From Escherichia coli (GTDB lineage Bacteria > Pseudomonadota > Gammaproteobacteria > Enterobacterales > Enterobacteriaceae), in NCBI RefSeq assembly GCF_013315695.1, contig NZ_CP054356.1: a DNA stretch of 64,000 nucleotides. One strand, 5' to 3'. Positions within the stretch are counted from its first letter, which is position 1. Each line of letters opens with the position of its first letter. The notes beneath the pieces were generated by a model that was given only the letters and a program-made list of their open reading frames with translations, was not told where the DNA came from and did no database searches. A program made the translations under genes and the position numbers. Positions 2,949 to 61,157 of the stretch are shown here, piece after piece.

Positions 2949-2981
2949 GGGCTCCGTTTGGGAAACGGAAAATATTGTACG

Positions 2982-5969: not shown

Positions 5970-6135
5970 ATAGTTATCCTTGTTAATTATTTAGTACGTT
6001 ATTTTTGATGAAAAGGTTATTGCATAAGGGTACACCCTGATGCGAGATATAAAATGTGACCTCATACAAATAATGACATAACCTATATGCGATAGAATAT
6101 ATGCAACAACCTAAATGCGACAATGCGGTGAAAAA
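5970..6135. promoter_or_regulatory. Putative res site and divergent promoters between tnpA and tnpR of the Tn5403-like element
   Basis: Intergenic position between divergently transcribed tnpA and tnpR, as in other Tn3-family elements; subsites not mapped. Confidence 0.35.
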
Positions 6136-6777: not shown

Positions 6778-6828
6778 AAAACAGCCTTAACGTACAATAT
6801 TTTCCGTTTCCCAAACGGAGCCCTATTT

Positions 6829-7247: not shown

Positions 7248-8120
<873 letters not shown>

Positions 8121-13148: not shown

Positions 13149-13151
13149 GTG

Positions 13152-14605: not shown

Positions 14606-14614
14606 TTGTTATCC

Positions 14615-16604: not shown

Positions 16605-16605
16605 G

Positions 16606-17493: not shown

Positions 17494-17519
17494 GCTCCCT
17501 GAACGGTTAATTCAACGTA

Positions 17520-17729
17520 TCAGATATGTGAACCACTTCCGCCGCTGCCACCGTTTCCACCACTACAACCGTTGCTGCAACCACCACAACCGCCACCTTG
17601 ACCACCGCAGCTACCGCCGCCGCCGCCGCCGCCACCACCACCAATGCCAACACCTAATGGAGACTGGCGTGATAATTTAAGAGCATCAACGGACAAAACT
17701 ACACCAAATTCACTCGCTTTTAATTCCAT
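17520..17729 (-). CDS. mcbA: Microcin B17 precursor peptide McbA, 69 aa
   Basis: Translation MELKASEFGVVLSVDALKLSRQSPLGVGIGGGGGGGGGGSCGGQGGGCGGCSNGCSGGNGGSGGSGSHI is the recalled pro-MccB17 (leader plus Gly/Ser/Cys core). Confidence 0.95.
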   Translation of the reverse strand: MELKASEFGVVLSVDALKLSRQSPLGVGIGGGGGGGGGGSCGGQGGGCGGCSNGCSGGNGGSGGSGSHI

Positions 17730-17982
17730 AAGGACTCCTTTTTTAAGGGAAATTAATGCTTATGACATCTGAATAGTATGTTGGCCAACACTAGTTACTT
17801 GCCGTCATTAACTATATTTTGCAATGATAATTTGAACTAAATTTGTACGCCTGTTAAATATTTAATAATAATATCAGTTGGTTATGTTTATGCTGTTATT
17901 GTTTTTTTACAAAAATTAATATTGTGTTTACATTTTGCTTTCAGTTGCTGTCAGGATGTCACACTACCCCTTTAAGCCCCCA

Positions 17983-26650: not shown

Positions 26651-26884
26651 TGTTCTTTAAAAATCAGGATTTATTTCAGGCTCCGGCAATACGCATTTAT
26701 GTGTTCTGTCAGTCATCCGGCTGGCAGGTAATGAAAACGCAGGAACAGAAGGAGGAAAACACCGGAAAGCGTCAGATGCAGATATGAAAAAAAGCAGGTC
26801 AGGGACCTGCTTAATCCACGCCGTAAGAATTGTGCGACCAATTTTGACGGCATTGTTAACCAATTTGTCATAAGGAATCCATTT

Positions 26885-27115
26885 ATGACTGTAAGCATTG
26901 TTTCACCTTCCGCAGCGGCTGTAAAGCCCCGCCGTCATCCCCGTTTCAGACGCGAAGACATCCCCGCGCCGGAACTTGACCCCGTGCTGAAAGCCTTCGG
27001 GCGACACATTGCCCGGAGTTTTCGCCGGGGGCGTGGTGTACACATCCCCGCCATGAAAAACACGGCCTTCGGGCAGGTGCTCCGCACACTCGAACTGAAA
27101 CGCGCTTTTAACTGA
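26885..27115 (+). CDS. Small basic hypothetical protein, 76 aa
   Basis: Arg-rich ORF downstream of R2 copy 1. Confidence 0.3.
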   Translation: MTVSIVSPSAAAVKPRRHPRFRREDIPAPELDPVLKAFGRHIARSFRRGRGVHIPAMKNTAFGQVLRTLELKRAFN

Positions 27116-34031: not shown

Positions 34032-34194
34032 TGCGGCAACAATCGCACAGATTACCCGTAAACAGCCTGAATGAGCGGGTTATTTTCAGGAAAAGTGAGT
34101 GTGGTCAGCGTGCAGGTATATGGGCTATGATGTGCCCGGCGCTTGAGGCTTTCTGCCTCATGACGTGAAGGTGGTTTGTTACCGTGTTGTGTGG

Positions 34195-34265
34195 CAGAAA
34201 GAAGATAGCCCCGTAGTAAGTTAATTTTCATTAACCACCACGAGGCATCCCTATGTCTAGTCCAC
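34195..34265 (-). ncRNA. sok: Putative Sok antisense RNA of the hok/sok (flm) locus; coordinates approximate
   Basis: Inferred from the position complementary to the hok/mok mRNA leader; ends not mapped. Confidence 0.3.
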
Positions 34266-34465
34266 ATCAGGATAGCCTCTTACCGCGCTTTGCGCAAGGA
34301 GAAGAAGGCCATGAAACTACCACGAAGTTCCCTTGTCTGGTGTGTGTTGATCGTGTGTCTCACACTGTTGATATTCACTTATCTGACACGAAAATCGCTG
34401 TGCGAGATTCGTTACAGAGACGGACACAGGGAGGTGGCGGCTTTCATGGCTTACGAATCCGGTAA
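34253..34465 (+). CDS. mok: Mok (modulator of killing) overlapping reading frame, 70 aa
   Basis: Translation [52 protein letters not shown]... overlapping hok in another frame. Confidence 0.6.
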
Positions 34466-36905: not shown

Positions 36906-37415
36906 TTAATTTTTCTGCACACTGTTAATTTGGGAAAGTGATTTCTTCGTGGTCGGAACCCGGATGCCTTTACTGCTCTTTATCCAGGTATAAATCCGGT
37001 AAACCTCTGATGCGTAGGCAAGACGTCTCTGGTTCTGGCGTTCGGTCTTCCTGAATCCGGCATTGTATGCACCAACGGCCTCCCAGGAGACGCCCCATTT
37101 TTTAAAGGCTATTGCCAGATAATAAGCACCGGTATAAATGTTCATGCAGGGATCTGTTGTCAGATGTTCCGGCTTAATTCCATAGCGGGCCAGTTCGTTA
37201 AAATGCTGGGAATCTACCTGCATCAGTCCGCTGCCATATCCCGTTACCGGATTAATACCGATGGCATTAACCCGGTAACGGGATTCTTTCCATGATATCG
37301 CTCTCAGTAAATCCGGGTCTATTTTGTAATCCCGACCTGCAAGATCAAAGCAATCGGCGGCTTCGCAGATCCCATTTATAAACATCAGGCAGATTGCTAA
37401 CATCCATTTTTTCAT
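36906..37415 (-). CDS. Lytic transglycosylase (gene X / orf169 / P19 family), 169 aa
   Basis: Signal peptide, then the lytic transglycosylase catalytic region ...[32 protein letters not shown]... (catalytic Glu in the WKES motif) and AYNAG motif. Confidence 0.85.
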
Positions 37416-37439
37416 TTTTCCACCTCTGGTGACTTTATC

Positions 37440-37810
37440 CGTAAATAATTTAACCTACTCCACAAAAAGGCTCAACAGGTTGGTGGTTCTCACCACCAAA
37501 AGCACCACACCCCACGCAAAAACAATTTTTTGCTGATTTTTCTTTATAAATAGAGTGTTATGAAAAATTAGTTTCTCTTACTCTCTTTATGATATTTAAA
37601 AAAGCGGTGTCGGCGCGGCTACAACAACGCGCCGACACCGCTTTGTAGGGGTGGTACTGACTATTTTTATAAAAAACATCATTTTATATTAGGGGCGCTG
37701 CTAGCGGCGCGGTGTGTTTTTTTATAGGATACCGCTAGGGGCGCTGCTAGCGGTGCGTCCCTGTTTGTATTATGAATTTTAGTGTTCCGAAATTAACTTT
37801 ATTTTATGTT
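37440..37810. other. oriT: oriT (origin of transfer): F-type nic sequence on the minus strand (GGGGTGT^GGTGCT, nick between 37507 and 37506), with TraM-binding repeats near traM
   Basis: Reverse complement of 37490-37520 reads gcgtggggtgtggtgcttttggtggtgag, the recalled F/R100 nic region; ctagcggcgcg/cgctaggggcgctgctagcgg repeats upstream of traM resemble sbm sites. Transfer would proceed from 37506 toward lower coordinates, so the leading region enters first. Confidence 0.8.
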
Positions 37811-37828
37811 CAAAAAAGGTAATCTCTA

Positions 37829-38212
37829 ATGGCTAAGGTGAACCTGTATATCAGCAATGATGCCTATGAAAAAATAAATTCGATTATTGAGAAGCGTCGA
37901 CAGGAAGGGGCAAGGGAAAAAGATGTCAGTTTTTCAGCAACAGCTTCAATGCTTCTTGAACTGGGGCTTCGTGTATATGAGGCTCAGATGGAGCGTAAAG
38001 AGTCTGCATTTAATCAGACTGAGTTTAATAAATTGCTTCTTGAATGCGTTGTAAAAACACAATCATCAGTAGCGAAAATTTTGGGTATTGAGTCTCTCAG
38101 TCCTCATGTCTCCGGAAATCCAAAGTTTGAATATGCCAATATGGTTGAAGATATCAGGGAGAAGGTATCATCTGAGATGGAACGATTTTTTCCAAAAAAT
38201 GATGATGAATAA
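37829..38212 (+). CDS. traM: Relaxosome protein TraM, 127 aa
   Basis: Translation MAKVNLYISNDAYEKINSIIEKRRQEGAREKDVSFSATASMLLELGLRVYE... matches recalled F TraM. Confidence 0.92.
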   Translation: MAKVNLYISNDAYEKINSIIEKRRQEGAREKDVSFSATASMLLELGLRVYEAQMERKESAFNQTEFNKLLLECVVKTQSSVAKILGIESLSPHVSGNPKFEYANMVEDIREKVSSEMERFFPKNDDE

Positions 38213-38304
38213 AAGAAATTTGACTTCGTTCAAATATCAGAGTTTTTATGATTTAAAAAGGTGACAGTACGAAAGATAATTAGTATATTAATTACGTGGT
38301 TAAT

Positions 38305-38395
38305 GCCACGTTAAAATTTGAATTTGAAAATCGCCGATGCAGGGAGTTCTCTCCTCCCCGCATCGACTGTCCATAGAATCCTTTGTGAGGAGGTT
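38305..38395 (-). ncRNA. finP: Putative FinP antisense RNA (fertility inhibition); coordinates approximate
   Basis: Expected antisense to the traJ leader between traM and traJ; ends not mapped from sequence. Confidence 0.35.
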
Positions 38396-39088
38396 CCTAT
38401 GTATCCGATGGATCGTATTCAACAAAAACATGCTCGTCAAATAGATCTGCTGGAAAATCTGACGGCAGTTATTCAGGATTATCCAAATCCAGCCTGTATC
38501 AGGGACGAAACTGGAAAATTTATTTTTTGCAATACGCTGTTTCATGAGTCATTTCTTACACAAGATCAAAGTGCTGAAAAATGGCTTCTGTCGCAGAGAG
38601 ATTTTTATGAATTGATCTCTGTCACAGAGATGGAAGCATACAGGAATGAGCATACGCATCTTAATCTTGTAGAGGATGTTTTTATTCAGAACAGATTCTG
38701 GACAATATCTGTCCAGTCATTTCTTAATGGACACAGAAATATTATTCTGTGGCAATTTTATGATGCTGCTCATGTTCGTCATAAAGACAGTTATAATCAA
38801 AAAACGATTGTCAGTGATGATATCAGAAATATAATCAGAAGAATGAGTGATGATTCTTCTGTATCATCATATGTAAATGATGTATTTTACTTATATAGCA
38901 CCGGAATCAGTCATAATGCTATAGCAAGAATATTAAACATATCCATCTCCACATCAAAGAAACACGCATCTCTGATATGCGACTACTTCTCTGTTTCTAA
39001 TAAAGATGAGTTAATCATCTTACTCTACAATAAAAAGTTTATTCATTATTTATACGAGAAGGCTATGTGTATCATAAATATGCGTTAA
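38396..39088 (+). CDS. traJ: Transfer operon activator TraJ, about 230 aa
   Basis: Translation from MYPMDRIQQKHARQIDLLENLTAVIQDYPNPACIRDETGK... matches recalled F TraJ; the longer upstream ORF is probably not translated. Confidence 0.85.
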   Translation, partial: PMYPMDRIQQKHARQIDLLENLTAVIQDYPNPACIRDETGKFIFCNTLFHESFLTQDQSAEKWLLSQRDFYELISVTEMEAYRNEHTHLNLVEDVFIQNRFWTISVQSFLNGHRNIILWQFYDAAHVRHKDSYNQKTIVSDDIRNIIRRMSDDSSVSSYVNDVFYLYSTGISHNAIARILNISISTSKKHASLICDYFSVSNKDELIILLYNKKFIHYLYEKAMCIINMR

Positions 39089-39180
39089 TAAAGTGTTAAT
39101 AAAATATAGACTTTCCGTCTATTTACCTTTTCTGATTATTCTGCAAACATAAGTGGTAACCAGAAGATAAACAGCGGGAG

Positions 39181-39582
39181 GTGTTATTGAAAAGATTTGG
39201 TACACGTTCTGCAACAGGTAAGATGGTAAAACTAAAATTACCTGTAGATGTGGAAAGTCTATTAATTGAGGCAAGTAACAGAAGCGGAAGAAGTCGATCG
39301 TTTGAGGCAGTAATAAGACTTAAAGATCATCTTCACCGCTATCCAAAGTTTAACAGGGCAGGAAATATCTATGGTAAGTCGCTGGTTAAGTATCTGACAA
39401 TGCGTCTGGATGATGAAACTAACCAGCTACTTATTGCAGCAAAAAATCGTAGTGGATGGTGTAAAACAGATGAGGCTGCAGACAGAGTTATTGATCATTT
39501 GATCAAGTTTCCTGATTTTTATAACTCGGAGATATTCAGGGAGGCAGATAAAGAGGAAGATATAACATTTAATACACTCTAG
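39181..39582 (+). CDS. traY: Relaxosome accessory protein TraY (ribbon-helix-helix), about 131-133 aa
   Basis: Translation ...KRFGTRSATGKMVKLKLPVDVESLLIEASNRSGRSRSFEAVIRLKDHL... with duplicated RHH modules; non-ATG start likely. Confidence 0.85.
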   Translation: MLLKRFGTRSATGKMVKLKLPVDVESLLIEASNRSGRSRSFEAVIRLKDHLHRYPKFNRAGNIYGKSLVKYLTMRLDDETNQLLIAAKNRSGWCKTDEAADRVIDHLIKFPDFYNSEIFREADKEEDITFNTL

Positions 39583-39614
39583 TTTTATTCATTTATCCGA
39601 AATTGAGGTAACTT

Positions 39615-39974
39615 ATGAATACTGTTTTAAGTGTTCAGGGTGCTTCTGCGCCCGTCAAAAAGAAATCGTTTTTTTCTAAATTCACTCGTCTGAATATGCT
39701 TCGCCTGGTTCGTGCAGTGATCCCGGTTGCTGTTCTGATGATGTTGTTCCCTGAGTTAGCTATGGCTGCTGGTAAAGGCGACCTGATGGCTAAAGGTAAC
39801 GATACGGTTAAGGCGACCTTCGGTAAGGACTCCAGTATCGTTAAATGGGTTGTTCTGGCTGAGGTGCTGGTCGGTGCGGTCATGTACATGATGACCAAAA
39901 ACGTCAAGTTCCTGGTCGGCTTTGCCATCATCTCTGTATTTATTGCTGTGGGTATGAGCGTCGTTGGCCTCTGA
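39615..39974 (+). CDS. traA: Propilin TraA, 119 aa
   Basis: Long leader peptide ending ...LAMA, then mature pilin ending [23 protein letters not shown]; N-terminal mature region differs from the F type ([13 protein letters not shown]). Confidence 0.9.
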
Positions 39975-40321: not shown

Positions 40322-40888
40322 ATGGAACACGGTGCCCGTTTAAGTACCAGTCGTGTAATGGCCATCGCCTTTATATTTATGTCAGTGCTTATTGTTCTCA
40401 GCCTCTCTGTTAACGTCATTCAGGGGGTGAATAACTACCGCCTTCAGAATGAGCAACGCACTGCCGTGACGCCAATGGGATTTAATGTGCCCTTTGCCGT
40501 GTCACAGAACAGTGCCGATGCCTCTTATTTGCAGCAGATGGCGCTGTCATTTATTGCCCTCCGTCTGAATGTCTCACCGGAAATCGTCGATGCCTCACAT
40601 CAGGCGCTTCTGCAATATATCCGCCCGGGCGCACAGAACCAGATGAAAGTTATTCTGGCTGAAGAAGCGAAACTCATTAAAAAAGATAACGTGAATTCTG
40701 CTTTTTTCCAGACCAGTGTCCGTGTCTGGCCTCAGTATGGTCGTGTGGAAATCCGTGGAATTCGGAAAACATGGATTGGTAACTCCGAACCTTTTACTGA
40801 TATCAAACATTACATCCTTATTCTGAAGCGGGAAAACGGGGTGACCTGGCTGGATAATTTCGGGGAAACAGACGATGAGAAAAAATAA
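40322..40888 (+). CDS. traE: Pilus assembly protein TraE, 188 aa
   Basis: Position, size, N-terminal TM anchor. Confidence 0.88.
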
Positions 40889-41603
40889 TACGGCAATAAT
40901 ATTCGGCGGCCTGTTTTTTTCCTGCAGCGTGATGGCCGCAAACGGTACGCTGGCCCCCACTGTGGTGCCAATGGTGAACGGTGGTCAGGCCAGTATTGCC
41001 ATCAGCAATACCAGCCCGAATCTGTTTACCGTTCCCGGTGACCGGATTATCGCCGTGAACAGTCTGGATGGTGCCCTGACCAATAATGAGCAGACCGCCT
41101 CCGGCGGTGTGGTGGTGGCCACCGTCAACAAAAAGCCCTTTACGTTCATTCTGGAAACAGAGCGTGGTCTGAACCTTTCCATTCAGGCTGTTCCCCGTGA
41201 AGGCGCGGGGCGTACCATTCAGCTGGTCAGTGACCTGCGCGGAACCGGAGAAGAAGCCGGAGCGTGGGAAACGTCCACGCCTTACGAATCCCTGCTTGTG
41301 ACCATCAGCCAGGCTGTCCGTGGCGGAAAATTACCTGCAGGCTGGTATCAGGTTCCTGTGACAAAGGAAACCCTGCAGGCCCCGGCGGGGCTGTCTTCAG
41401 TGGCAGATTCCGTATGGACGGGGAATCACCTGAAGATGGTCCGCTTTGCCGTGGAAAATAAAACGCTGTCTGCCCTGAATATCCGGGAAAGTGATTTCTG
41501 GCAGCCGGGAACCCGTGCCGTGATGTTCAGCCAGCCTGCCAGCCAGTTACTGGCAGGTGCGCGCATGGATGTGTATGTCATCCGTGACGGGGAGGGCAAC
41601 TGA
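40875..41603 (+). CDS. traK: Secretin-like transfer protein TraK, 242 aa
   Basis: Signal peptide, position and size. Confidence 0.88.
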
Positions 41604-43054
41604 TGGCCAGTATCAATACCATTGTGAAACGCAAGCAGTACCTGTGGCTGGGGATTGTGGTTGTCGGTGCAGCCTCCGCGATTGGTGGGGTACTGTATCT
41701 GTCTGATGTGGACATGTCCGGTAACGGTGAGGCGGTGGCTGAACAGGAGCCTGTGCCGGATATGACAGGTGTGGTGGATACGACCTTTGATGACAAGGTG
41801 CGTCAGCATGCCACCACAGAGATGCAGGTGACGGCAGCGCAGATGCAGAAGCAGTATGAGGAAATCCGTCGTGAACTGGATGTCCTGAACAAACAGCGCG
41901 GTGATGACCAGCGTCGTATTGAAAAGCTGGGACAGGACAATGCCGCCCTGGCAGAGCAGGTAAAAGCCCTGGGTGCTAATCCCGTCACGGCGACCGGTGA
42001 GCCTGTACCTCAGATGCCTGCCTCACCGCCCGGGCCGGAAGGCGAACCACAGCCAGGAAACACCCCCGTATCCTTCCCGCCGCAGGGCAGCGTTGCTGTT
42101 CCACCGCCGACGGCGTTTTATCCCGGGAATGGTGTCACGCCACCACCACAGGTGACGTACCAGTCTGTGCCGGTGCCTAACCGGATACAGCGTAAGGTGT
42201 TTACCCGTAATGAGGGAAAACAGGGACCATCGCTGCCGTACATTCCGTCAGGAAGTTTTGCGAAAGCCATGCTGATTGAAGGGGCGGATGCCAATGCCTC
42301 AGTCACCGGTAATGAATCCACGGTGCCGATGCAGTTGCGTATCACCGGCCTGGTGGAAATGCCGAACAGCAAGACGTATGACGCAACGGGATGTTTTGTG
42401 GGGCTGGAAGCCTGGGGGGATGTGTCCAGTGAACGTGCCATTGTACGCACCCGCAATATCAGTTGCCTGAAGGACGGCAAAACTATTGATATGCCGATTA
42501 AGGGGCATGTCAGCTTCCGGGGTAAAAACGGTATCAAGGGCGAAGTGGTGATGCGTAACGGCAAAATCCTCGGCTGGGCATGGGGCGCGGGATTTGTTGA
42601 CGGTATCGGTCAGGGAATGGAGCGCGCCTCCCAACCGGCTGTCGGGCTGGGTGCCACAGCCGCTTACGGGGCTGGTGATGTCCTGAAAATGGGTATCGGT
42701 GGCGGCGCATCGAAAGCCGCACAGACGCTCAGTGACTACTACATCAAACGTGCCGAACAGTATCACCCGGTGATACCGATTGGTGCGGGCAACGAAGTGA
42801 CCGTGGTGTTCCAGGACGGCTTCCAGCTGAAAACCGTGGAGGAAATGGCGCTGGAGCAGTCACAGAGTACAGCGGAAGAGGGTAACCCGGAAAGCCCGGT
42901 GCCGAATCCTCCCTCGGCAGAAAGCCACCTGAACGGTTTTAACACCGACCAGATGCTGAAACAGCTGGGCAATCTGAATCCGCAGCAGTTTATGTCCGGA
43001 GACAAGAACCCGCTGGGCGGGGATGCCGGCAAGGAGGGCGGAAATGGCGGGTGA
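41603..43054 (+). CDS. traB: Transfer protein TraB (VirB10-like), 483 aa
   Basis: N-terminal TM, Pro-rich linker, C-terminal VirB10-like domain. Confidence 0.9.
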   Translation: MASINTIVKRKQYLWLGIVVVGAASAIGGVLYLSDVDMSGNGEAVAEQEPVPDMTGVVDTTFDDKVRQHATTEMQVTAAQMQKQYEEIRRELDVLNKQRGDDQRRIEKLGQDNAALAEQVKALGANPVTATGEPVPQMPASPPGPEGEPQPGNTPVSFPPQGSVAVPPPTAFYPGNGVTPPPQVTYQSVPVPNRIQRKVFTRNEGKQGPSLPYIPSGSFAKAMLIEGADANASVTGNESTVPMQLRITGLVEMPNSKTYDATGCFVGLEAWGDVSSERAIVRTRNISCLKDGKTIDMPIKGHVSFRGKNGIKGEVVMRNGKILGWAWGAGFVDGIGQGMERASQPAVGLGATAAYGAGDVLKMGIGGGASKAAQTLSDYYIKRAEQYHPVIPIGAGNEVTVVFQDGFQLKTVEEMALEQSQSTAEEGNPESPVPNPPSAESHLNGFNTDQMLKQLGNLNPQQFMSGDKNPLGGDAGKEGGNGG

Positions 43055-43610
43055 TGCACTGACATTCCGTGTGGCGTTTGTCGTTCGCTGGCTGCTGTGG
43101 GTCGTCAGGTTTGTGGTTATCTGGCCGCTGGCCACAATGGCCCTGATGGCTCTGTTTGTTTTATGGAAGGACAACACCACGCCGGGGAAATTACTGGTTA
43201 AGGAGATTAACTTCGTAAGACAAACAGCACCTGCCGGACAGTTCCCGGTCAGTGAATGCTGGTTTTCTTCCTCTGATTCTTCAGGCAGATCAGAAATACA
43301 GGATATCTGCCATTACCGCGCGGCTGATGCTGCAGATTATGTCAGGGAGACTGACCGGTCACTGATGCAACTGGTCACCGCATTCTGGGCAACGCTGGCA
43401 CTGATGTATATGTCGTTTGCGGCAGGCACCGGGAAATATCCGATGTGGCCCGGAAAAATGAAATGTGTCCGGGTGGGAACCGCAGATGAACATCTGAAGG
43501 AAGTTTATACGGAAGACGCTTCCCTGCCGGAAAAAATCAGGAAATGCCCTGTTTATTTCCATGATGACAGAACAAACAGAAGCAACGGAGATAAAAATGA
43601 ACATGCGTAA
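43023..43610 (+). CDS. traP: Transfer protein TraP, 195 aa
   Basis: Position and size in the tra operon. Confidence 0.8.
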   Translation: MPARRAEMAGDALTFRVAFVVRWLLWVVRFVVIWPLATMALMALFVLWKDNTTPGKLLVKEINFVRQTAPAGQFPVSECWFSSSDSSGRSEIQDICHYRAADAADYVRETDRSLMQLVTAFWATLALMYMSFAAGTGKYPMWPGKMKCVRVGTADEHLKEVYTEDASLPEKIRKCPVYFHDDRTNRSNGDKNEHA

Positions 43611-43914
43611 TATTAATGTTATTACTGCCCGCGCTGTGCCGGATAAAAACGTATCAGATGATTTTATGCATGCTGTTCTCAGTAACTGCACCACAAGAAT
43701 CGCACTTCCTGCGCCGAAGAAATTCAGTTCTGAATCATTGCCGCACAATTTTAATATGGCTGCTGTCGGAGTGATGAAGAAGGGTATGTCGATGAGTTTA
43801 TTTTCTTCTCCGGGAAATACAGTAGTCTCCGGACAACCCTGTGCAGGAAAAACAAATCTGACAGTAGAGTTAATTTCTGCTGTTGTGGAGAGTAATAAAA
43901 AAGGAGAAGGGTAA
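43597..43914 (+). CDS. TrbD/TrbG region ORF (start uncertain)
   Basis: Small ORF between traP and traV where F carries trbD and trbG; exact gene boundaries not resolved. Confidence 0.45.
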   Translation: MNMRNINVITARAVPDKNVSDDFMHAVLSNCTTRIALPAPKKFSSESLPHNFNMAAVGVMKKGMSMSLFSSPGNTVVSGQPCAGKTNLTVELISAVVESNKKGEG

Positions 43915-44429
43915 TGAAACAGATTTCTTTATTTATTCCTCTGCTGGGAACCTTATTACTTTCCGGCTGTGCAGGAACGAACTCTGATTTTGAGTGTGAT
44001 GCCACCACGTCAGATACCTGTATGACGATGGAGCAGGCTAATGAGAAGGCCAAAAAACTGGAGCAGTCCTCAGAAGCAAAGCCGGTTGCGGCATCACTGC
44101 CGCGCCTGGCTGAAGGGAACTTCCGGACCACGTCGGTGCAGGCCGTTGCGGCGACAACGCCGTCCCGCAGCAGGCCTGCGGTGACAGCACATCCGGAGCA
44201 GAAACTGCTGGCACCACGCCCGCTGTTTACCGCTGCCCGGGAAGTGAAAACGGTTGTTCCGGTCAGTTCAGTTGCGCCGGTAACACCTCCCCGTCCGCTA
44301 AGAACGGGTGAGCAGACGGCTGCATTATGGATAGCGCCTTATATTGATAATCAGGATGTTTATCATCAGCCATCCAGTGTGTTTTTTGTTATTAAACCGT
44401 CTGCGTGGGGAAAACCACGTATTAATTAA
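43914..44429 (+). CDS. traV: Outer-membrane lipoprotein TraV, 171 aa
   Basis: Lipobox LLSGC at the N-terminus; position and size. Confidence 0.9.
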   Translation: MKQISLFIPLLGTLLLSGCAGTNSDFECDATTSDTCMTMEQANEKAKKLEQSSEAKPVAASLPRLAEGNFRTTSVQAVAATTPSRSRPAVTAHPEQKLLAPRPLFTAAREVKTVVPVSSVAPVTPPRPLRTGEQTAALWIAPYIDNQDVYHQPSSVFFVIKPSAWGKPRIN

Positions 44430-51020: not shown

Positions 51021-51667
51021 GAAATATCATGAACCGGAAAATATTTGCACTTTTTGCTCTGACAGCAGGGATGCATCTTGCTGTTCATGCTTCAGAAAAT
51101 GTGAACACACCTGAAAACCGCCAGTTCCTGAAGCAGCAGGAAAATTTAAGCAGACAACTGCGAGAGAAACCTGACCATCAGCTGAAAGCCTGGGCGGAGA
51201 AACAGGTGCTGGAAAACCCCCTTCAGCGTTCAGATAACCATTTTCTGGATGAGCTGGTTCGTAAACAGCAGGCTTCGCAGGACGGGAAACCCCGGCAGGG
51301 TGCCCTGTATTTTGTGTCGTTTTCCATTCCCGAAGAGGGGCTGAAACGGATGCTGGGCGAAACCCGGCACTACGGTATTCCGGCCACACTGCGGGGCATG
51401 GTGAACAATGACCTGAAGACCACCGCTGAAGCCGTGCTGTCCCTGGTGAAAGACGGCGCGACTGATGGTGTTCAGATCGACCCGACGCTGTTTTCACAGT
51501 ACGGCATTCGCAGTGTACCGGCACTGGTGGTGTTCTGCAGTCAGGGATACGACATCATCCGGGGAAACCTGCGGGTCGGCCTGGCGCTGGAGAAAGTGGC
51601 CGCCACGGGTGACTGCCGGCAGGTGGCTCATGATTTACTGGCAGGGAAAGGAGATTCCGGGAAATGA
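51017..51667 (+). CDS. trbC: Transfer protein TrbC, 216 aa
   Basis: Signal peptide; position and size. Confidence 0.85.
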   Translation: MRNIMNRKIFALFALTAGMHLAVHASENVNTPENRQFLKQQENLSRQLREKPDHQLKAWAEKQVLENPLQRSDNHFLDELVRKQQASQDGKPRQGALYFVSFSIPEEGLKRMLGETRHYGIPATLRGMVNNDLKTTAEAVLSLVKDGATDGVQIDPTLFSQYGIRSVPALVVFCSQGYDIIRGNLRVGLALEKVAATGDCRQVAHDLLAGKGDSGK

Positions 51668-53514
51668 AACGTATTTTACCTCTGATACTGGCTCTGGTTG
51701 CCGGCATGGCACAGGCTGACAGCAACAGTGATTACCGGGCCGGTTCTGATTTTGCCCGTCAGATTCAGGGGCAGGGTACAGGCAGTATTCAGGGCTTTAA
51801 GCCACAGGAGAGTATCCCCAGCTATAACGCGAATCCGGACGAGACAAAATATTACGGTGGCGTGACTGCCGGCGGGGATGGCGGCCTGAAAAATGACGGC
51901 ACCACGGAATGGGCGACCGGTGAAACCGGAAAAACCATCACAGAGTCCTTCATGAACAAGCCGAAAGACATTCTGTCACCGGATGCACCGTTCATTCAGA
52001 CCGGCAGGGATGTGGTGAACCGGGCTGACAGCATTGTGGGAAACACCGGGCAGCAGTGCAGTGCGCAGCAGATAAACCGCAGTGAGTTCACAAACTATAC
52101 CTGTGAGCGGGACACGATGGTGGAGGAGTACTGCACACGGACTGCCAGTATCACCGGGGACTGGAAATACACGGATGAATATCGTGAAGTGACGATACCG
52201 CACTCACAGTTCCGGTTCAGTATGAACGGGCTGAAACTGGTGTTCAGTGTCACGGCTCCGGTAACCGGTACAGTGGAAAGTGCATCATTGTCTGTATACG
52301 CCGCTTTTTTCTTCCTGAACTCCCGTTATACCTTCATGAATACAACCTTTAATGTCGGCCTGGCAAACGGGCAGTCGGATACTTACCCCCTGTCCGGGGC
52401 GACAGGTTTGCAGGTGACACAGGGGCAGGTTCTGACCGGTAGTGGCTGTACTGCTAACGGTAATTGCCTCCCGCACGGGAATGGTGACAGGAAAGTCTAT
52501 GAATCGCTTGTCAGTGGTGCTTCCACCTTTACGCTGAAACTCAGGATGAAGGTCCGTGATAAAGAATGGGTTCCCCGGGTGGAGTGGGTGGAGAGTTGTC
52601 CGTTTAATAAAGCGGATGGCGTGCTGACAGGCACTGAGTGTTCAGAGCCGGGTGGTACGAAAACCGGAGTGATGGAAGGTAAACCCTGGAACATCACACA
52701 GGCATGCTGGGCATACCGGGATAAATATGTCACTCAGTCCGCAGATAACGGCACCTGTCAGAAATATGTCGATAATCCGGCCTGTACGCTGGCCTCACGT
52801 CAGTGCGCGTTTTATTCCGATGAGGGAACCTGTCTGCATGAGTACGCCACGTACTCCTGCGAGTCCAGAACATCAGGAAAAGTGATGGTCTGTGGTGGTG
52901 ATGTCTTCTGCCTTGACGGTGAATGCGATAAGGCACAGAGCGGAAAAAACAGTGATTTTGGTGAAGCAGTATCACAGCTGGCTGCGCTTGCCGCCGCAGG
53001 TAAGGATGTTGCCGCCCTGAATGGTGTGGATGTCAGGGCTTTCACGGGTGAGGCGAAATTCTGCCGTAAGGCCGCAGCCGGCTTCAGTAACTGCTGTAAG
53101 GATGGCGGCTGGGGTCAGGATGTGGGGCTGGCGAAGTGCAACAGTGAAGAAAAGGCGCTGGGAAAGGCAAAGGACAACAAACTGACGGTGAGTGTGGGCG
53201 AGTTCTGCTCCCGGAAAGTGCTGGGTGTCTGTCTGCAGAAAAAGCGCAGCTACTGCCAGTTTGATTCGAAGCTGGCGCAGATAGTCCAGCAGCAGGGGCG
53301 TAACGGGCAGTTGCGTATCAGTTTTGGCAGTGCGAAGCATCCTGACTGTCGGGGGATTACGGTTGATGAGCTGCAGAAAATTCAGTTCGACAGACTGGAT
53401 TTCACTAACTTCTACGAAGACCTGATGAATAACCAGAAAATCCCGGACAGTGGCGTTCTGACGCAGAAAGTGAAAGAGCAGATTGCTGACCAGCTGAAAC
53501 AGGCAGGACAGTAA
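51664..53514 (+). CDS. traN: Mating-pair stabilisation outer-membrane protein TraN, 616 aa
   Basis: Signal peptide, many conserved Cys in the C-terminal third; size and position. Confidence 0.9.
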   Translation: MKRILPLILALVAGMAQADSNSDYRAGSDFARQIQGQGTGSIQGFKPQESIPSYNANPDETKYYGGVTAGGDGGLKNDGTTEWATGETGKTITESFMNKPKDILSPDAPFIQTGRDVVNRADSIVGNTGQQCSAQQINRSEFTNYTCERDTMVEEYCTRTASITGDWKYTDEYREVTIPHSQFRFSMNGLKLVFSVTAPVTGTVESASLSVYAAFFFLNSRYTFMNTTFNVGLANGQSDTYPLSGATGLQVTQGQVLTGSGCTANGNCLPHGNGDRKVYESLVSGASTFTLKLRMKVRDKEWVPRVEWVESCPFNKADGVLTGTECSEPGGTKTGVMEGKPWNITQACWAYRDKYVTQSADNGTCQKYVDNPACTLASRQCAFYSDEGTCLHEYATYSCESRTSGKVMVCGGDVFCLDGECDKAQSGKNSDFGEAVSQLAALAAAGKDVAALNGVDVRAFTGEAKFCRKAAAGFSNCCKDGGWGQDVGLAKCNSEEKALGKAKDNKLTVSVGEFCSRKVLGVCLQKKRSYCQFDSKLAQIVQQQGRNGQLRISFGSAKHPDCRGITVDELQKIQFDRLDFTNFYEDLMNNQKIPDSGVLTQKVKEQIADQLKQAGQ

Positions 53515-55010: not shown

Positions 55011-55295
55011 ATGATAAGTAAACGCAGATTCTCTTTACCACGGCTTGATATTACGGGAATGTGGGTATTTTCCCTGGGTGTCTGGTTTCATATCGTCGCC
55101 CGTCTTGTTTACAGCAAACCCTGGATGGCTTTTTTTCTGGCGGAGTTGATTGCGGCCATCCTTGTGCTGTTCGGCGCATACCAGGTGCTGGATGCATGGA
55201 TTGCACGTGTCAGCCTGGAAGAGCGTGAGGCACTGGAAGCCAGGCAACAGGCCATGATGGAAGGGCAGCAGGAGGGCGGACATGTCTCTCACTAA
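55011..55295 (+). CDS. traQ: Pilin chaperone TraQ, 94 aa
   Basis: Position and size; membrane segment. Confidence 0.85.
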   Translation: MISKRRFSLPRLDITGMWVFSLGVWFHIVARLVYSKPWMAFFLAELIAAILVLFGAYQVLDAWIARVSLEEREALEARQQAMMEGQQEGGHVSH

Positions 55296-56477: not shown

Positions 56478-57837
56478 ACCTCTTCTGGTTCTTTGTGCCG
56501 CTTTACTGACGGTCACACCCGCAGCGTCAGCGGATGTGAACAGCGACATGAATCAGTTCTTTAATAAGCTGGGATTTGCTTCCAATACCACACAACCGGG
56601 CGTCTGGCAGGGGCAGGCCGCCGGGTATGCCTATGGTGGCTCCCTGTATGCCCGCACCCAGGTCAAAAATATCCAGCTGATTTCCATGACGCTGCCGGAT
56701 ATCAATGCCGGATGTGGCGGCATCGACGCCTATCTCGGCTCGTTCAGTTTTATTAATGGCGATCAGTTGCAGCGTTTTGTTAAGCAGATTATGAGCAACG
56801 CTGCCGGTTACTTTTTTGACCTTGCCCTGCAGGCAACGGTGCCGGAAATCAAAACCGCAAAAGACTTCCTGCAGAAAATGGCAAGCGACATTAACAGTAT
56901 GAACCTCAGCTCCTGTCAGGTGGCGCAGGGGATTGTCGGAGGATTATTTCCTCAGACTCAGGTGTCACAGCAGAAGGTCTGTCAGGACATTGCCGGTGAG
57001 AGCAATATTTTTGCTGACTGGGCCGCGTCCCGTCAGGGCTGCACGGTCGGAGGACAGTCATCGTCTGTTCGTGACAAGGCCAGTGACAAAGATAAGGAAC
57101 GGGTGCTGAAGAACATCAATATCATCTGGGACTCGCTGTCCAAAAACAGGATGCTTGATGGTAACAAAGAACTGAAAGAATTTATTATGACGCTCACCGG
57201 TACGCTGATTTTTGGGGAAGACAGCGAGATTACCCCCCTGCCGGCGCGTACCACTGACCGCGATATCCTCCGGGCGATTATGGAGGGGGGAACGGCAAAA
57301 GTTTATCACTGCAACGATTCGGACAAGTGTCTGAAGGTGGTGGCGGATGCAAATGTGACCATCGCCCGGGATAAAGCCCTGAAATCACAGATTACAAAAC
57401 TGCTCACCAGTATTCAGAATAAAGCGGTGAGTGATACTCCACTGGATGACAGGGAAAAAGGCTTCATTTCCAGCACCACCGTCCCCGTCTTTAAATATCT
57501 TATTGACCCGCAGATGCTCGGTGTGTCCAGCAGCGTGGTTTACCAGCTGACGGACTATATCGGCTACGACATCATGCTCCAGTACATTCAGGAACTGCTT
57601 CAGCAGGCCCGGGCCATGATTGCCACCGGGAACTATCCACAGACCGTGCTGGACAGTGTGCTGGAGAATCTGAATCAGGCACAGCAACAGATTGCGGTTT
57701 TCCAGGGGCAGGTAAAGGTCCAGCAGGATGCATTGCTGGTTGTTGACCGTCAGATGAGCTACATGCGCCAGCAGCTTTCCGCCCGCATGCTCAGCCGTTA
57801 CCAGAACAACTATCACTTCGGAGGGAGCACGCTGTGA
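56455..57837 (+). CDS. traH: Pilus assembly protein TraH, about 460 aa
   Basis: Signal peptide; size and position. Confidence 0.9.
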   Translation: MAIMLRIKPLLVLCAALLTVTPAASADVNSDMNQFFNKLGFASNTTQPGVWQGQAAGYAYGGSLYARTQVKNIQLISMTLPDINAGCGGIDAYLGSFSFINGDQLQRFVKQIMSNAAGYFFDLALQATVPEIKTAKDFLQKMASDINSMNLSSCQVAQGIVGGLFPQTQVSQQKVCQDIAGESNIFADWAASRQGCTVGGQSSSVRDKASDKDKERVLKNINIIWDSLSKNRMLDGNKELKEFIMTLTGTLIFGEDSEITPLPARTTDRDILRAIMEGGTAKVYHCNDSDKCLKVVADANVTIARDKALKSQITKLLTSIQNKAVSDTPLDDREKGFISSTTVPVFKYLIDPQMLGVSSSVVYQLTDYIGYDIMLQYIQELLQQARAMIATGNYPQTVLDSVLENLNQAQQQIAVFQGQVKVQQDALLVVDRQMSYMRQQLSARMLSRYQNNYHFGGSTL

Positions 57838-60656
57838 ATGAAGTCTATGTGATTGCCGGTGGTGAGTGGTTAAGCAATAACCTGAACGCCATTGCCGCCT
57901 TTATGGGGACCCGGACGTGGGATTCCATCGAAAAAATTGCGCTCACATTGTCTGTTCTCGCGGTGGCCGTGATGTGGGTACAGCGGCACAACGTGATGGA
58001 TTTGCTGGGCTGGGTGGCCGTGTTTGTGCTTATCAGCCTGCTGGTTAATGTCCGTACATCGGTGCAGATTATTGATAACAGTGACCTGGTCAAAGTTCAC
58101 CGGGTGGATAATGTGCCGGTCGGACTGGCGATGCCACTTTCACTGACGACCCGTATCGGGCATGCAATGGTGGCCAGTTACGAGATGATATTCACCCAGC
58201 CGGACAGTGTCACCTACAGCAAAACGGGGATGCTGTTCGGCGCAGAACTGGTATCAAAAAGCACCGACTTTTTGTCCCGCAATCCGGAAATCGCCAATCT
58301 TTTTCAGGATTATGTGCAGAACTGTGTGATGGGGGATATTTACCTGAACCACAAATACACGCTGGAGGAGCTGATGGCCTCCGCTGATCCCTACACGCTG
58401 ATTTTTTCCCGCCCCAGTCCGCTGCGGGGCGTTTACGACAGCAATAATAATTTCGTGACCTGTAAGGACGCGTCGGTTTCGCTGAAAGACAAGCTGAATC
58501 TGGACACACAGAGTGGCGGAAAAACCTGGCATTATTATGCCCAGCAGTTATTTGGTGGTCGCCCTGATCCGAACCTGTTGTTCAGTACGCTGATTGGCGA
58601 CAGTTACAGTTACTTCTATGGCTCAAGTAAATCAGCCAGCCAGATCATCCGCCAGAATGTCACCATCAATGCGCTGAAGGAGGGGATCACCAGTTATGCC
58701 GCACGTAATGGTGATTCGGCCAGCCTGGTGAATCTGGCCACCACATCATCGATGGAGAAGCAACGTCTGGCACATGTCTCCATCGGTCATGTGGCGATGC
58801 GGACACTGCCCATGACGCAGACCATCCTGACGGGGATCGCCATCGGTATTTTCCCGCTCCTGGTACTGGCGGCTGTCTTCAACAAACTGACGCTGTCCGT
58901 CCTGAAAGGCTATGTGTTTGCCCTGATGTGGTTGCAGTCATGGCCAATGTTGTACGCCATTCTGAACAGTGCCATGACATTTTATGCGAAGCAGAACGGT
59001 GCACCGGTGGTGCTCTCAGAAATTTCACAGATACAGCTGAAATACTCCGATCTGGCTTCCACTGCCGGGTATCTTTCCATGATGATCCCGCCATTATCCT
59101 GGATGATGGTCAGGGGACTCGGGGCCGGATTTTCCAGTGTGTACAGCCATTTCGCTTCCTCTGCTATCAGCCCGACCGCCAGTGCGGCAGGCAGTGTGGT
59201 TGACGGTAATTACTCCTACGGCAACATGCAGACGGAAAACGTGAACGGCTTCAGCTGGAGCACCAACAGCACCACGTCGTTTGGTCAGATGATGTACCAG
59301 ACCGGCAGTGGCGCAACTGCCACACAGACCCGTGACGGTAATATGGTGATGGATGCGAGCGGGGCGATGTCCCGGTTACCGGTTGGTATCAATGCAACGC
59401 GTCAGATTGCAGCGGCACAACAGGAAATGGCCCGGGAGGCGTCGAACAGAGCAGAAAGCGCCCTGCATGGGTTCAGCAGCAGTATTGCCAGTGCCTGGAA
59501 CTCGCTCAGCCAGTTTGGTTCTAACCGGGGGAGCAGTGATTCTGTCACAGGTGGTGCTGACAGCACGATGAGCGCACAGGACTCCATGATGGCCAGCCGT
59601 ATGCGCAGTGCAGTGGAAAGCTATGCGAAGGCGCATAATATCAGTAATGAGCAGGCGACTCAGGAACTGGCATCCAGAAGTACGAGAACTTCTGCCGGGA
59701 TGTATGGAGATGCTCATGCTGAATGGGGGGTTAAACCTAAAATTCTTGGTGTTGGTGGAGGATTAGGCGTTAGAGGTGGTGGTCGGGCTGGTATTGATTG
59801 GGAAGATAATGATGCGCATACGGCAAGTAGTAATACTCAGTCGAGCCATAATGCTCGTCATGATATCGATGCCAGAGCTACACAAGACTTTAAAGAGGCC
59901 AGCGATTACTTTACCAGTCGCAAGGTCAGTGAGTCCGGCAGCCATACTGACAATAATGCTGATTCCCGTGTGGATCAGTTGTCTGCAGCCCTGAATTCAG
60001 CGAAGCAGAGTTACGACCAGTACACGACGAATATGACCCGCAGCCATGAATATGCTGAAATGGCATCCCGTACTGAAAGCATGAGTGGGCAGATGAGTGA
60101 AGACCTGTCGCAACAGTTTGCACAGTATGTAATGAAACACGCGCCACAGGATGCAGAAGCTATTCTGACAAACACCAGTTCACCGGAGATTGCAGAACGT
60201 CGTCGGGCGATGGCCTGGTCTTTTGTGCAGGAACAGGTACAGCCTGGTGTTGATAATGCCTGGCGGGAATCCCGTGGTGATATTGGTAAAGGAATGGAGA
60301 GCGTACCTTCGGGTGGTGGCAGTCAGGATATTATTGCTGACCATCAGGGACATCAGGCCATTATTGAGCAAAGAACGCAGGACAGTAATATCCGTAATGA
60401 TGTAAAACATCAGGTTGATAATATGGTCACAGAATATAAAGGGAATATAGGTGATACTCAGAACAGCGTACGTGGCGAGGAAAATATTGTAAGAGGACAG
60501 TATTCTGAACTGCAGAATCACCATAAAACAGAGGCATTATCTCAGAATAATAAATATAATGAAGAAAAGTCGGCTCAGGAAAGAATGCCCGGGGCTGACA
60601 GTCCACAGGAACTTATGAAAAGGGCAAAGGAATATCAGGATAAGTATAAGCAATAA
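57834..60656 (+). CDS. traG: Mating-pair stabilisation / entry-exclusion specificity protein TraG, 940 aa
   Basis: N-terminal polytopic membrane region and large periplasmic C-terminus; size and position. Confidence 0.9.
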   Translation: MNEVYVIAGGEWLSNNLNAIAAFMGTRTWDSIEKIALTLSVLAVAVMWVQRHNVMDLLGWVAVFVLISLLVNVRTSVQIIDNSDLVKVHRVDNVPVGLAMPLSLTTRIGHAMVASYEMIFTQPDSVTYSKTGMLFGAELVSKSTDFLSRNPEIANLFQDYVQNCVMGDIYLNHKYTLEELMASADPYTLIFSRPSPLRGVYDSNNNFVTCKDASVSLKDKLNLDTQSGGKTWHYYAQQLFGGRPDPNLLFSTLIGDSYSYFYGSSKSASQIIRQNVTINALKEGITSYAARNGDSASLVNLATTSSMEKQRLAHVSIGHVAMRTLPMTQTILTGIAIGIFPLLVLAAVFNKLTLSVLKGYVFALMWLQSWPMLYAILNSAMTFYAKQNGAPVVLSEISQIQLKYSDLASTAGYLSMMIPPLSWMMVRGLGAGFSSVYSHFASSAISPTASAAGSVVDGNYSYGNMQTENVNGFSWSTNSTTSFGQMMYQTGSGATATQTRDGNMVMDASGAMSRLPVGINATRQIAAAQQEMAREASNRAESALHGFSSSIASAWNSLSQFGSNRGSSDSVTGGADSTMSAQDSMMASRMRSAVESYAKAHNISNEQATQELASRSTRTSAGMYGDAHAEWGVKPKILGVGGGLGVRGGGRAGIDWEDNDAHTASSNTQSSHNARHDIDARATQDFKEASDYFTSRKVSESGSHTDNNADSRVDQLSAALNSAKQSYDQYTTNMTRSHEYAEMASRTESMSGQMSEDLSQQFAQYVMKHAPQDAEAILTNTSSPEIAERRRAMAWSFVQEQVQPGVDNAWRESRGDIGKGMESVPSGGGSQDIIADHQGHQAIIEQRTQDSNIRNDVKHQVDNMVTEYKGNIGDTQNSVRGEENIVRGQYSELQNHHKTEALSQNNKYNEEKSAQERMPGADSPQELMKRAKEYQDKYKQ

Positions 60657-60671
60657 TGCTGTTTTTGGGAG

Positions 60672-61157
60672 ATGATAATGAGATGTTTAACCCATATTAC
60701 TCTGGTAACGGTGATACAGTTTATCGCCTGTTATCTGGCTGGTTGGGGGAATGCCGAAACAATTTTTATGCTGTTCTTCATAGTACTATGGCAGGGACTG
60801 TTTATATGGTTGTTCTCTCAAATACGAAAAAAACGGAATGTGTCGGATGAGTTTAAGTTTAGTAAAGGCGTTTGGTATATAACGATGCCAGTATCTTCCT
60901 TACTCTCTCCATTATTAAGCCTGATGGTTTTTATCATTGGTACACTATACGAATTAAGGCGAGTTAGTGGTTGTGTAAGCGTAAGAGAATGGATGCAATC
61001 TCAGGTAAATGAACAAACTAATGAAGATTTGCATCTGGATTTTGATAATATGGATTTTCATCGTACTAATCCTGCAACAGGGTTACCTATGTCAGGTATT
61101 GGTGTGGATATCGGTGGTAATTCATATGGTTATAGTTCAAAACGATATGATGAGTGA
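60672..61157 (+). CDS. traS: Entry exclusion inner-membrane protein TraS (divergent), about 150-161 aa
   Basis: Hydrophobic ORF between traG and traT; assignment by synteny, since TraS is poorly conserved. Confidence 0.6.
   Translation: MIMRCLTHITLVTVIQFIACYLAGWGNAETIFMLFFIVLWQGLFIWLFSQIRKKRNVSDEFKFSKGVWYITMPVSSLLSPLLSLMVFIIGTLYELRRVSGCVSVREWMQSQVNEQTNEDLHLDFDNMDFHRTNPATGLPMSGIGVDIGGNSYGYSSKRYDE

What the first reader, a model, noticed from the sequence alone, without database searches (positions are those of the whole stretch)
39615..39974. TraA pilin differs from the F type in the N-terminal region of the mature pilin
The mature pilin begins [19 protein letters not shown], which differs from the F-type sequence I recall at the same position. 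This region affects pilus serotype and sensitivity to pilus-specific phages. TraS is also highly diverged, as expected for exclusion specificity.
Basis: partly seen in the sequence, partly recalled or inferred. Interest (0 to 1): 0.2.

Follow-up and report, generated by a model that had tools for sequence, protein, structure and literature searches.

The report
Ordinary R100-type F-like conjugative pilin
The gene is an intact conjugative pilin gene whose mature product is identical to the long-known pilin of the resistance plasmid R100, so its difference from the F-plasmid pilin is real but not new.

Summary
The ORF at 39615..39974 (+) is a genuine traA gene of 119 aa. It scores 225 bits against NCBIfam NF010294 and 203 bits against Pfam TraA, and it sits between traY and traL. 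By alignment to F, the mature pilin starts [19 protein letters not shown], where F has AGSSGQDLMASGNTTVKATFG.

The gene differs from traA of plasmid R100 (NC_002134.1) at only two adjacent bases. These change one residue, K15 instead of E15, in the cleaved leader. All 68 mature residues are identical to R100, in DNA as well as protein.

The exact protein is on at least 1000 public contigs, and 533 plasmid records carry traA at 99% DNA identity or more. TraS is unrelated to F TraS (22% identity) but matches R100 TraS at 160 of 161 residues. The TraG region that recognises TraS is also R100-type.

One extra point is a recombinant tra region. An F-type block runs from the oriT nick site through traM, traJ and traY. 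It joins R100-type genes within 16 bases around the traA start codon. About 35 complete E. coli records hold the same joint.

Verdict: already known, low interest.

The parts
39615..39974 (+). traA, the propilin gene (119 codons plus stop)
   Evidence: ORF listing and sequence. NCBIfam NF010294 at 225 bits and Pfam PF05513 at 203 bits. 100% DNA identity in at least 18 E. coli plasmids annotated traA.
39605..39608 (+). GAGG ribosome-binding site of traA, 6 nt upstream of the ATG
   Evidence: Read directly from the sequence. Its function is inferred.
39615..39767 (+). 51-residue leader peptide ending ...PELAMA. It contains the only difference from R100 (K15 versus E15, bases 39656-39657).
   Evidence: Alignment to the R100 and F genes. 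The cleavage point is inferred from F (alignment; PMC10516633 states that the 121-aa F propilin gives a 70-aa pilin).
39768..39971 (+). Mature pilin, 68 residues, identical to the R100 pilin in protein and DNA
   Evidence: The R100 sequence carries the UniProt name PIL5_ECOLX.
39768..39806 (+). Type-determining N-terminal segment [13 protein letters not shown] (F has AGSSGQDLMASGNTT)
   Evidence: The same N-terminus is found in 7 cluster representatives standing for at least 505 member sequences.
39605..39620 (.). Interval holding the right-hand recombination joint. Upstream is F-type (last R100-discriminating site at 39604). Downstream is R100-type (first F-discriminating site at 39621).
   Evidence: Three-way alignment of window, F and R100.
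37511..39604 (+). F-type block holding the oriT nick region, traM, FinP/traJ and traY
   Evidence: Informative-site scan, sliding identity and protein identities. TraM, TraJ and TraY are 97.6%, 98.7% and 100% identical to F, against 90%, 24% and 26% to R100. The F-type nick-site sequence is at 37499-37520. FinP and the traJ 5' UTR are at 38294-38405.
55011..55295 (+). traQ, the pilin chaperone needed for propilin insertion and processing
   Evidence: tblastn gives 98.9% identity to TraQ of both F and R100. The role is described in PMC7555446.
60672..61157 (+). traS, the entry-exclusion gene, R100 allele
   Evidence: 160 of 161 residues identical to R100, 22% to F. Pfam TraS PF10624 at 313 bits. 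686 plasmid records at 99% protein identity or more.
59661..59852 (+). TraG residues 610-673, the segment that recognises the cognate TraS. It is R100-type here.
   Evidence: Four-way TraG alignment. The role of residues 610-673 is stated in PMC9797247.

Best explanation
This is the structural gene for the pilus subunit of an F-like (MPF-F) conjugation system, and it is the R100 (R100-1) allele.

Shown here:
- The ORF is intact, with a ribosome-binding site.
- It matches the TraA family models and lies in the canonical position traY-traA-traL.
- Its mature part is identical to R100 TraA.
- The tra genes found in the window are intact: traL, E, K, B, P, V, R, C, W, U, N, F, Q, H and G, and trbC, trbB and trbI.

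Inferred from established knowledge of F-like systems:
- The 119-aa propilin is inserted into the inner membrane with the help of TraQ.
- Its 51-residue leader is cut after Ala51 by the host leader peptidase.
- The new N-terminal Ala is acetylated by TraX, which is encoded beyond the end of the window.
- The 68-residue pilin is stored in the membrane and polymerised by the Tra machinery into a phospholipid-containing helical filament.

The pilus should therefore have the serotype and male-specific phage sensitivity of R100-1 pili, not of F pili. The same backbone carries the R100 alleles of TraS and of the TraS-recognition segment of TraG. The plasmid should therefore also fall in the R100 entry-exclusion group.
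For: - Family membership.
- Gene order and annotation in near-identical plasmids.
- Identity to R100: two adjacent base differences in 360, both in the leader.
- Comparison with F: 107 of 121 residues identical; the differences are listed.
- Exact protein already public on at least 1000 contigs, named TraA pilin. The R100 sequence sits in the same 90% cluster under the name PIL5_ECOLX.
- 533 plasmid records at 99% DNA identity or more and 496 at 99% protein identity or more.
- Solved F-pilus structures match residues 56-119 (5LER, E = 1.9e-31).
- The other tra genes are present at 92-100% identity to R100.
- TraS is 160/161 identical to R100 and the TraG 610-673 region is R100-type.
- Literature: five known pilin types including R100-1 (PMC3245843). 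R100 differs from F in pilus serology, phage sensitivity and exclusion (PMC9797247).
Against: Nothing in the data contradicts it. The caveats are these.
- The cleavage site, acetylation, serotype and phage sensitivity are inferred from homology and were not measured.
- traX and finO lie beyond the window, so expression state and acetylation cannot be checked.
- The comparison used the R100 record, while the published pilin type is named after its derepressed derivative R100-1. I assumed from general knowledge that the two have the same traA.
- The primary papers (Frost 1985 and 1994, Anthony 1999) were not available to read.
Confidence: 0.96

Rival explanations
1. The gene encodes a new pilin serotype that has not been described. 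This is the reading the first reader left open.
For: The N-terminus differs from F at the type-determining segment.
Against: The mature sequence is identical to R100. R100-1 is one of the five described types (PMC3245843). The exact protein is on at least 1000 contigs.
Confidence: 0.01
2. The single leader change (K15 here, E15 in R100) alters propilin insertion or processing, so the pilin behaves differently despite the identical mature sequence.
For: The change reverses a charge in the N-terminal part of the leader.
Against: K15 is also the state in F TraA and in other abundant alleles such as P0035, so both states occur in working systems. The leader is removed before assembly.
Confidence: 0.02
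3. The gene is intact, but the system is a non-functional recombinant. F-type regulators and relaxosome genes were fused to R100-type pilus genes, so the pilin is not made or not used.
For: The tra region is a recombinant, with the joint at the traA start.
Against: - The PY promoter region, traJ, FinP and traY all lie together in the F-type block, so regulator and target stay matched.
- The nick site is F-type. In the sister plasmid p5505-2 the TraI relaxase domain is also F-type at residues 193 and 201.
- All assembly genes are intact.
- The same joint is kept at 99% identity or more in 35 complete E. coli records, and the nearly identical plasmids are typed as conjugative.
Confidence: 0.03

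Closest known systems
TraA pilin of plasmid R100 / R100-1 (NC_002134.1, WP_001098992.1; UniProt name PIL5_ECOLX)
   Same: All 68 mature residues are identical, and the DNA encoding them is identical. Length is the same (119 aa), the leader is the same apart from one residue, and the downstream neighbours are the same (traL 100%, traE 99.5%, traK 99.6%, traB 99.2%).
   Different: Leader residue 15 is K instead of E (bases 39656-39657). The upstream genes traY, traJ and traM are F-type, not R100-type.
TraA pilin of the F plasmid (NC_002483.1, WP_000994779.1; structures 5LER, 5LFB, 6NM5)
   Same: Same family, same leader architecture and cleavage motif (AMA|A), and the same hydrophobic core. Identity is 107 of 121 residues.
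   Different: The mature N-terminal tail is AGKG instead of AGSSGQ. There are also S11K, T14D, V26I, A52V and A66S, plus five differences in the leader (T3A, V32A, V38A, L44F, E47Q, window residue first). The deposited 5LER chain has 65 residues and aligns only from the DLMA motif onward, so the solved F structure gives no view of the variable tail.
Other natural F-like pilin N-terminal variants (e.g. [52 protein letters not shown])
   Same: Same family, and the same pattern: a conserved core with a hypervariable first ~15 mature residues.
   Different: The N-terminal sequences differ. From memory only, AQGQDLMASGNTT is the ColB2 type; I could not check this against the primary paper.
R100 entry-exclusion pair TraS / TraG
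   Same: TraS is identical at 160 of 161 residues. TraG residues 610-673 differ from R100 at one position only.
   Different: The N-terminal half of TraG (about window 58001-59500) is only 82-92% identical in DNA to F, R100 and p5505-2.

Membership tests
F-type conjugative pilin TraA (Pfam PF05513; NCBIfam NF010294 / TIGR02758) | Full-length match to the family profiles above the curated cut-offs | tested here: met
   NF010294 at 225.3 bits (cut-off 150), TIGR02758 at 126.6 bits (cut-off 76.55) and PF05513 at 203 bits (cut-off 22.6).
F-type conjugative pilin TraA (Pfam PF05513; NCBIfam NF010294 / TIGR02758) | Long leader of about 51 residues ending in an Ala-X-Ala motif, followed by an N-terminal Ala on the mature pilin | tested here: met
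   The leader aligns residue for residue with the F leader and ends LAMA|AG. The cleavage itself was not measured.
F-type conjugative pilin TraA (Pfam PF05513; NCBIfam NF010294 / TIGR02758) | Position in the tra operon between traY and traL, with the pilus-assembly genes downstream | tested here: met
   ORF map, annotation of the near-identical plasmid and the tblastn gene table.
F-type conjugative pilin TraA (Pfam PF05513; NCBIfam NF010294 / TIGR02758) | Maturation partners: TraQ chaperone and TraX N-acetylase | tested here: inconclusive
   traQ is present and intact (55011-55295, 98.9% to F and R100). traX lies beyond the end of the window and could not be examined.
F-type conjugative pilin TraA (Pfam PF05513; NCBIfam NF010294 / TIGR02758) | Polymerises into a conjugative pilus | not testable with these tools
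   Needs electron microscopy or phage and mating assays. The closest solved filament is F (5LER), which matches residues 56-119.
R100-1 pilin type (one of the five described F-like pilin types) | Mature pilin sequence equal to that encoded by R100 | tested here: met
   68 of 68 residues and 204 of 204 bases are identical.
R100-1 pilin type (one of the five described F-like pilin types) | R100-1 pilus serology and pattern of sensitivity to male-specific phages | not testable with these tools
   This is a phenotype. It is expected from the sequence identity but was not measured.
F pilin type in the strict sense | Mature N-terminus AGSSGQDLMASGNTT | tested here: not met
   The window has [13 protein letters not shown].
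R100 entry-exclusion specificity group (TraS with cognate TraG) | TraS of the R100 allele | tested here: met
   160 of 161 residues identical to R100 and 22% to F. Pfam TraS at 313 bits.
R100 entry-exclusion specificity group (TraS with cognate TraG) | TraG residues 610-673 of the R100 type | tested here: met
   One difference from R100 in this segment, and many from F and from p5505-2. The segment's role is stated in PMC9797247.

The most novel reading that the evidence does not exclude
The most novel reading left open concerns the pilin's context, not the pilin. This plasmid lineage carries a hybrid transfer region. An F-type DNA-processing and regulatory module runs from the nick site through traM, FinP/traJ and traY, and the sister plasmid also has an F-type TraI relaxase domain. 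This module is joined, within 16 bases at the traA ribosome-binding site and start codon, to an R100-type pilus, mating-pair and exclusion module. Such a plasmid would be regulated and nicked like F. It would be seen by phages, antisera and exclusion systems like R100. If this exact module swap has not been described, it would be a tidy natural example of modular exchange at a gene boundary.
Probability: 0.25. Interest if true: 0.2.

Novelty: already known. Interest (0 to 1): 0.05.

Why it matters
It matters little. The pilin allele predicts that hosts of this plasmid make R100-type pili. That implies R100-type serology and phage sensitivity, and R100-type entry exclusion. This is useful for typing the plasmid and for anyone choosing pilus-specific phages against it. 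It adds no new biology, because the allele has been known since the 1980s and is common in sequenced Enterobacteriaceae plasmids. The F/R100 recombinant structure illustrates the well-known mosaicism of F-like transfer regions.

Tried and rejected
- I tried to read the primary papers: Frost et al. 1985 (PMC219321), Frost, Ippen-Ihler and Skurray 1994 (PMC372961) and Anthony et al. 1999 (PMC94017). None is held. The link between the R100 record and the published 'R100-1 type' therefore rests on a secondary statement in PMC3245843, the UniProt name seen, and general knowledge that R100-1 is a derepressed R100.
- One literature search failed on term syntax and I did not repeat it.
- I considered the 98-aa ORF on the opposite strand (39635..39931). 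I rejected it as a shadow of traA, because it has no support and lies wholly inside a strongly supported gene.
- I considered p5505-2 (NZ_CP095528.1) as the same plasmid. It is 100% identical over most 500-base windows from 30 to 54 kb, but it diverges in traG and traS, so it is only a sister.
- I did not fetch R1, ColB2, pED208 or pSLT records for a formal five-type alignment, because identity to R100 already settles the question. The clustered database variants served as the diversity panel instead.

Full report
**Observation**

It spans 39615..39974 on the + strand, with an ATG start, 119 codons and a stop. A GAGG ribosome-binding site lies six bases upstream.

It is a real gene. It scores 225.3 bits against NCBIfam NF010294, 'F-type conjugative transfer system pilin TraA' (cut-off 150), and 203 bits against Pfam PF05513 (cut-off 22.6). 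It sits in the canonical order traM-traJ-traY-traA-traL-traE-traK-traB.

Aligned with F TraA, the leader ends ...LAMA at residue 51. The mature protein begins [19 protein letters not shown], where F has AGSSGQDLMASGNTTVKATFG. Relative to F the mature pilin differs as follows:
- The N-terminal tail is two residues shorter: AGKG instead of AGSSGQ.
- There are five substitutions, in F numbering: S11K, T14D, V26I, A52V and A66S.

The cleavage site is inferred from homology to F.

**What it is**

A megablast of the gene against 72,556 plasmid records found 533 records at 99% identity or more. At least 18 E. coli plasmids were 100% identical, all annotated traA. Among the near-identical hits was NC_002134.1, the classical resistance plasmid R100.

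I fetched that record and aligned the genes. They differ at two adjacent bases out of 360 (window 39656-39657). This changes leader residue 15 from E in R100 to K here. K is also the residue in F.

The 204 bases that encode the mature pilin are identical to R100, so all 68 mature residues are identical. An exact-sequence look-up shows that the window protein is already public on at least 1000 contigs under the name 'type IV conjugative transfer system pilin TraA'. The R100 sequence lies in the same 90% cluster under the UniProt name PIL5_ECOLX.

It does.

**Diversity context**

A database search with the protein returned 374 relatives at E <= 1e-20, of which the best 120 were listed. I tabulated the first mature residues of the cluster representatives held. 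The result is a conserved core with a hypervariable N-terminus that has many natural variants.

The [13 protein letters not shown] form occurs in seven representatives standing for at least 505 member sequences. Other common forms include [26 protein letters not shown] and AQGQDLMASGNTT. The window's form is therefore one ordinary, frequent allele among many.

The solved F-pilus structure matches residues 56-119 (5LER, E = 1.9e-31). The deposited chain has 65 residues and aligns only from the DLMA motif onward. The solved F structure therefore gives no view of how the variable tail is displayed.

**How it works**

Shown here:
- The traA gene is intact.
- traQ, the pilin chaperone gene, is intact.
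- The tra genes found in the window are intact: traL, E, K, B, P, V, R, C, W, U, N, F, H and G, and trbC, trbB and trbI. Those with an annotated R100 counterpart are 92-100% identical to it. R100 traN is not in the annotation table used. The traN DNA (window 51664-53511) is 97.4-99.8% identical to R100 in 500-base windows.

Inferred from established knowledge of F-like systems (summarised in PMC7555446 and PMC10516633):
- The propilin is inserted into the inner membrane with TraQ.
- The 51-residue leader is removed by the host leader peptidase.
- The new N-terminal alanine is acetylated by TraX.
- The subunit is polymerised with phospholipid into the pilus.

traX lies beyond the end of the window and could not be checked. 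Because the mature sequence equals that of R100, the pilus should have R100-1 serology and R100-1 sensitivity to male-specific phages. That is a prediction, not a measurement.

**The TraS remark**

TraS at 60672..61157 matches Pfam TraS at 313 bits. It is indeed unrelated to F TraS at the sequence level, with 22% global identity and no tblastn hit. It is, however, identical to R100 TraS at 160 of 161 residues, and 686 plasmid records hold it at 99% identity or more.

Entry exclusion in these plasmids depends on donor TraG recognising the cognate TraS. Specificity resides in TraG residues 610-673, which are only 17% identical between F and R100 (PMC9797247). In the window that TraG segment is R100-type, with a single difference. 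Pilin, TraS and the TraG recognition segment are therefore all R100 alleles, and they are mutually consistent.

**Recombinant tra region (outside the finding)**

The tra region is a recombinant of F-type and R100-type sequence.

| Gene product | Identity to F | Identity to R100 |
|---|---|---|
| TraM | 97.6% | 90% |
| TraJ | 98.7% | 24% |
| TraY | 100% | 26% |
| TraA | 88.4% | 99.2% |
| TraL | 99.0% | 100% |

From TraA onward the genes are R100-type.

A three-way alignment places the right-hand joint between 39605 and 39620, that is, at the traA ribosome-binding site and start codon. The left-hand joint lies between 37299 and 37511.

The oriT nick-site sequence at 37499-37520 has the F form (TTTGCGTGGGGTGTGGTGCTTT on the other strand), not the R100 form. 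FinP and the traJ 5' UTR lie inside the F block.

The window ends inside traD, so traI cannot be read. In the sister plasmid p5505-2 the TraI relaxase domain is F-type, including Q193 and R201. That plasmid is 100% identical to the window over most 500-base windows from 30 to 54 kb. From memory, residues 193 and 201 govern nick-site specificity.

The hybrid therefore keeps each specificity pair within one parental type. A query spanning the joint finds 35 records at 99% identity or more among 5,426 complete E. coli genomes. This is a recurring lineage, not a one-off. Mosaicism of F-like plasmids is well known, and I did not find or rule out a paper describing this particular joint.

**Identity of the window**

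The window starts at an IncFII-type repA. By comparison with pSCU-108-2 (NZ_CP051737.1) it carries a Tn3 with blaTEM-1, the microcin B17 operon, parM, a leading region with ssb, psiB and hok/sok, and then the tra region.

Relative to that relative, it has an extra 3875-bp Tn3-family element at 2949-6823. This element has perfect 48-bp terminal inverted repeats, a 5-bp target duplication, a 995-aa Tn3-type transposase and a resolvase. It is inserted in a DUF6710 gene.

**Verdict**

This is the R100-type pilin, already described, with an exact sequence that is common in public data. Interest is low. The only mildly interesting point is the clean F/R100 module joint at the traA start, and it too is present in many sequenced plasmids.

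Noticed in passing
window 37299-39620: The tra region is a recombinant. An F-type block (oriT nick site, traM, FinP/traJ, traY) is flanked by R100-type sequence. The right joint lies within 39605-39620, at the traA ribosome-binding site and start codon. The left joint lies within 37299-37511. The sister plasmid p5505-2 has an F-type TraI relaxase domain (Q193, R201) that matches the F-type nick site. The same joint is in 35 complete E. coli records at 99% identity or more.
   Followed up: yes
window 39656-39657: The only difference from R100 traA is K15 versus E15 in the leader, and the window base pair is the F state inside an otherwise R100-type gene. This could be a tiny second recombination patch, or a change private to the R100 branch. 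Both K15 and E15 occur among abundant alleles.
   Followed up: partly
window 58001-59500 (traG N-terminal half): This stretch of traG is only 82-92% identical in DNA to F, R100 and the sister plasmid p5505-2, while the flanks are about 99-100% R100-like. It looks like a third parental source within traG. An Rfam 'AS-traG' antisense RNA match lies inside it, at 58553-58638 on the minus strand.
   Followed up: partly
L002 (NZ_CP095528.1) 40616-43947 versus window 57834-61157: The sister plasmid p5505-2 is identical to the window over most of the 24 kb compared (30-54 kb). It nevertheless carries a different TraS (169 aa, WP_000628099.1) and a different TraG 610-673 segment. The exclusion module has therefore been swapped between otherwise near-identical plasmids.
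   Followed up: partly
window 2949-6823: A 3875-bp Tn3-family transposon that is absent from the closest relatives. It has perfect 48-bp terminal inverted repeats and a 5-bp target duplication (2944-2948 = 6824-6828). It encodes a 995-aa Tn3 DDE transposase (minus strand) and a 220-aa resolvase, and it is inserted in a DUF6710 gene.
   Followed up: partly
window 1-25000: By comparison with pSCU-108-2, the window begins at an IncFII repA. It carries a RelE/ParE toxin gene, Tn3 with blaTEM-1 (about 7250-8110 after the insertion offset), the microcin B17 operon mcbA-G (about 12585-17730) and parM/parR.
   Followed up: partly
window 34137-34313 and 26789-26890: Rfam matches to the sok antitoxin RNA (+ strand, 88.9 bits) and to 'AS-pc01', an antisense RNA (minus strand, 79.4 bits against a gathering score of 79), both in the leading region.
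   Followed up: no
protein P0043: A 137-aa TraA that is 97% identical to the window pilin is labelled 'F-pilin [Streptococcus pneumoniae]' in NCBI. This is most likely contamination or a mislabelled assembly, since the gene is otherwise confined to Enterobacterales.
   Followed up: no
E. coli genome collection: 40 of the 3260 traA-containing places in complete E. coli genomes lie on chromosomes rather than plasmids. This suggests integrated F-like elements.
   Followed up: no
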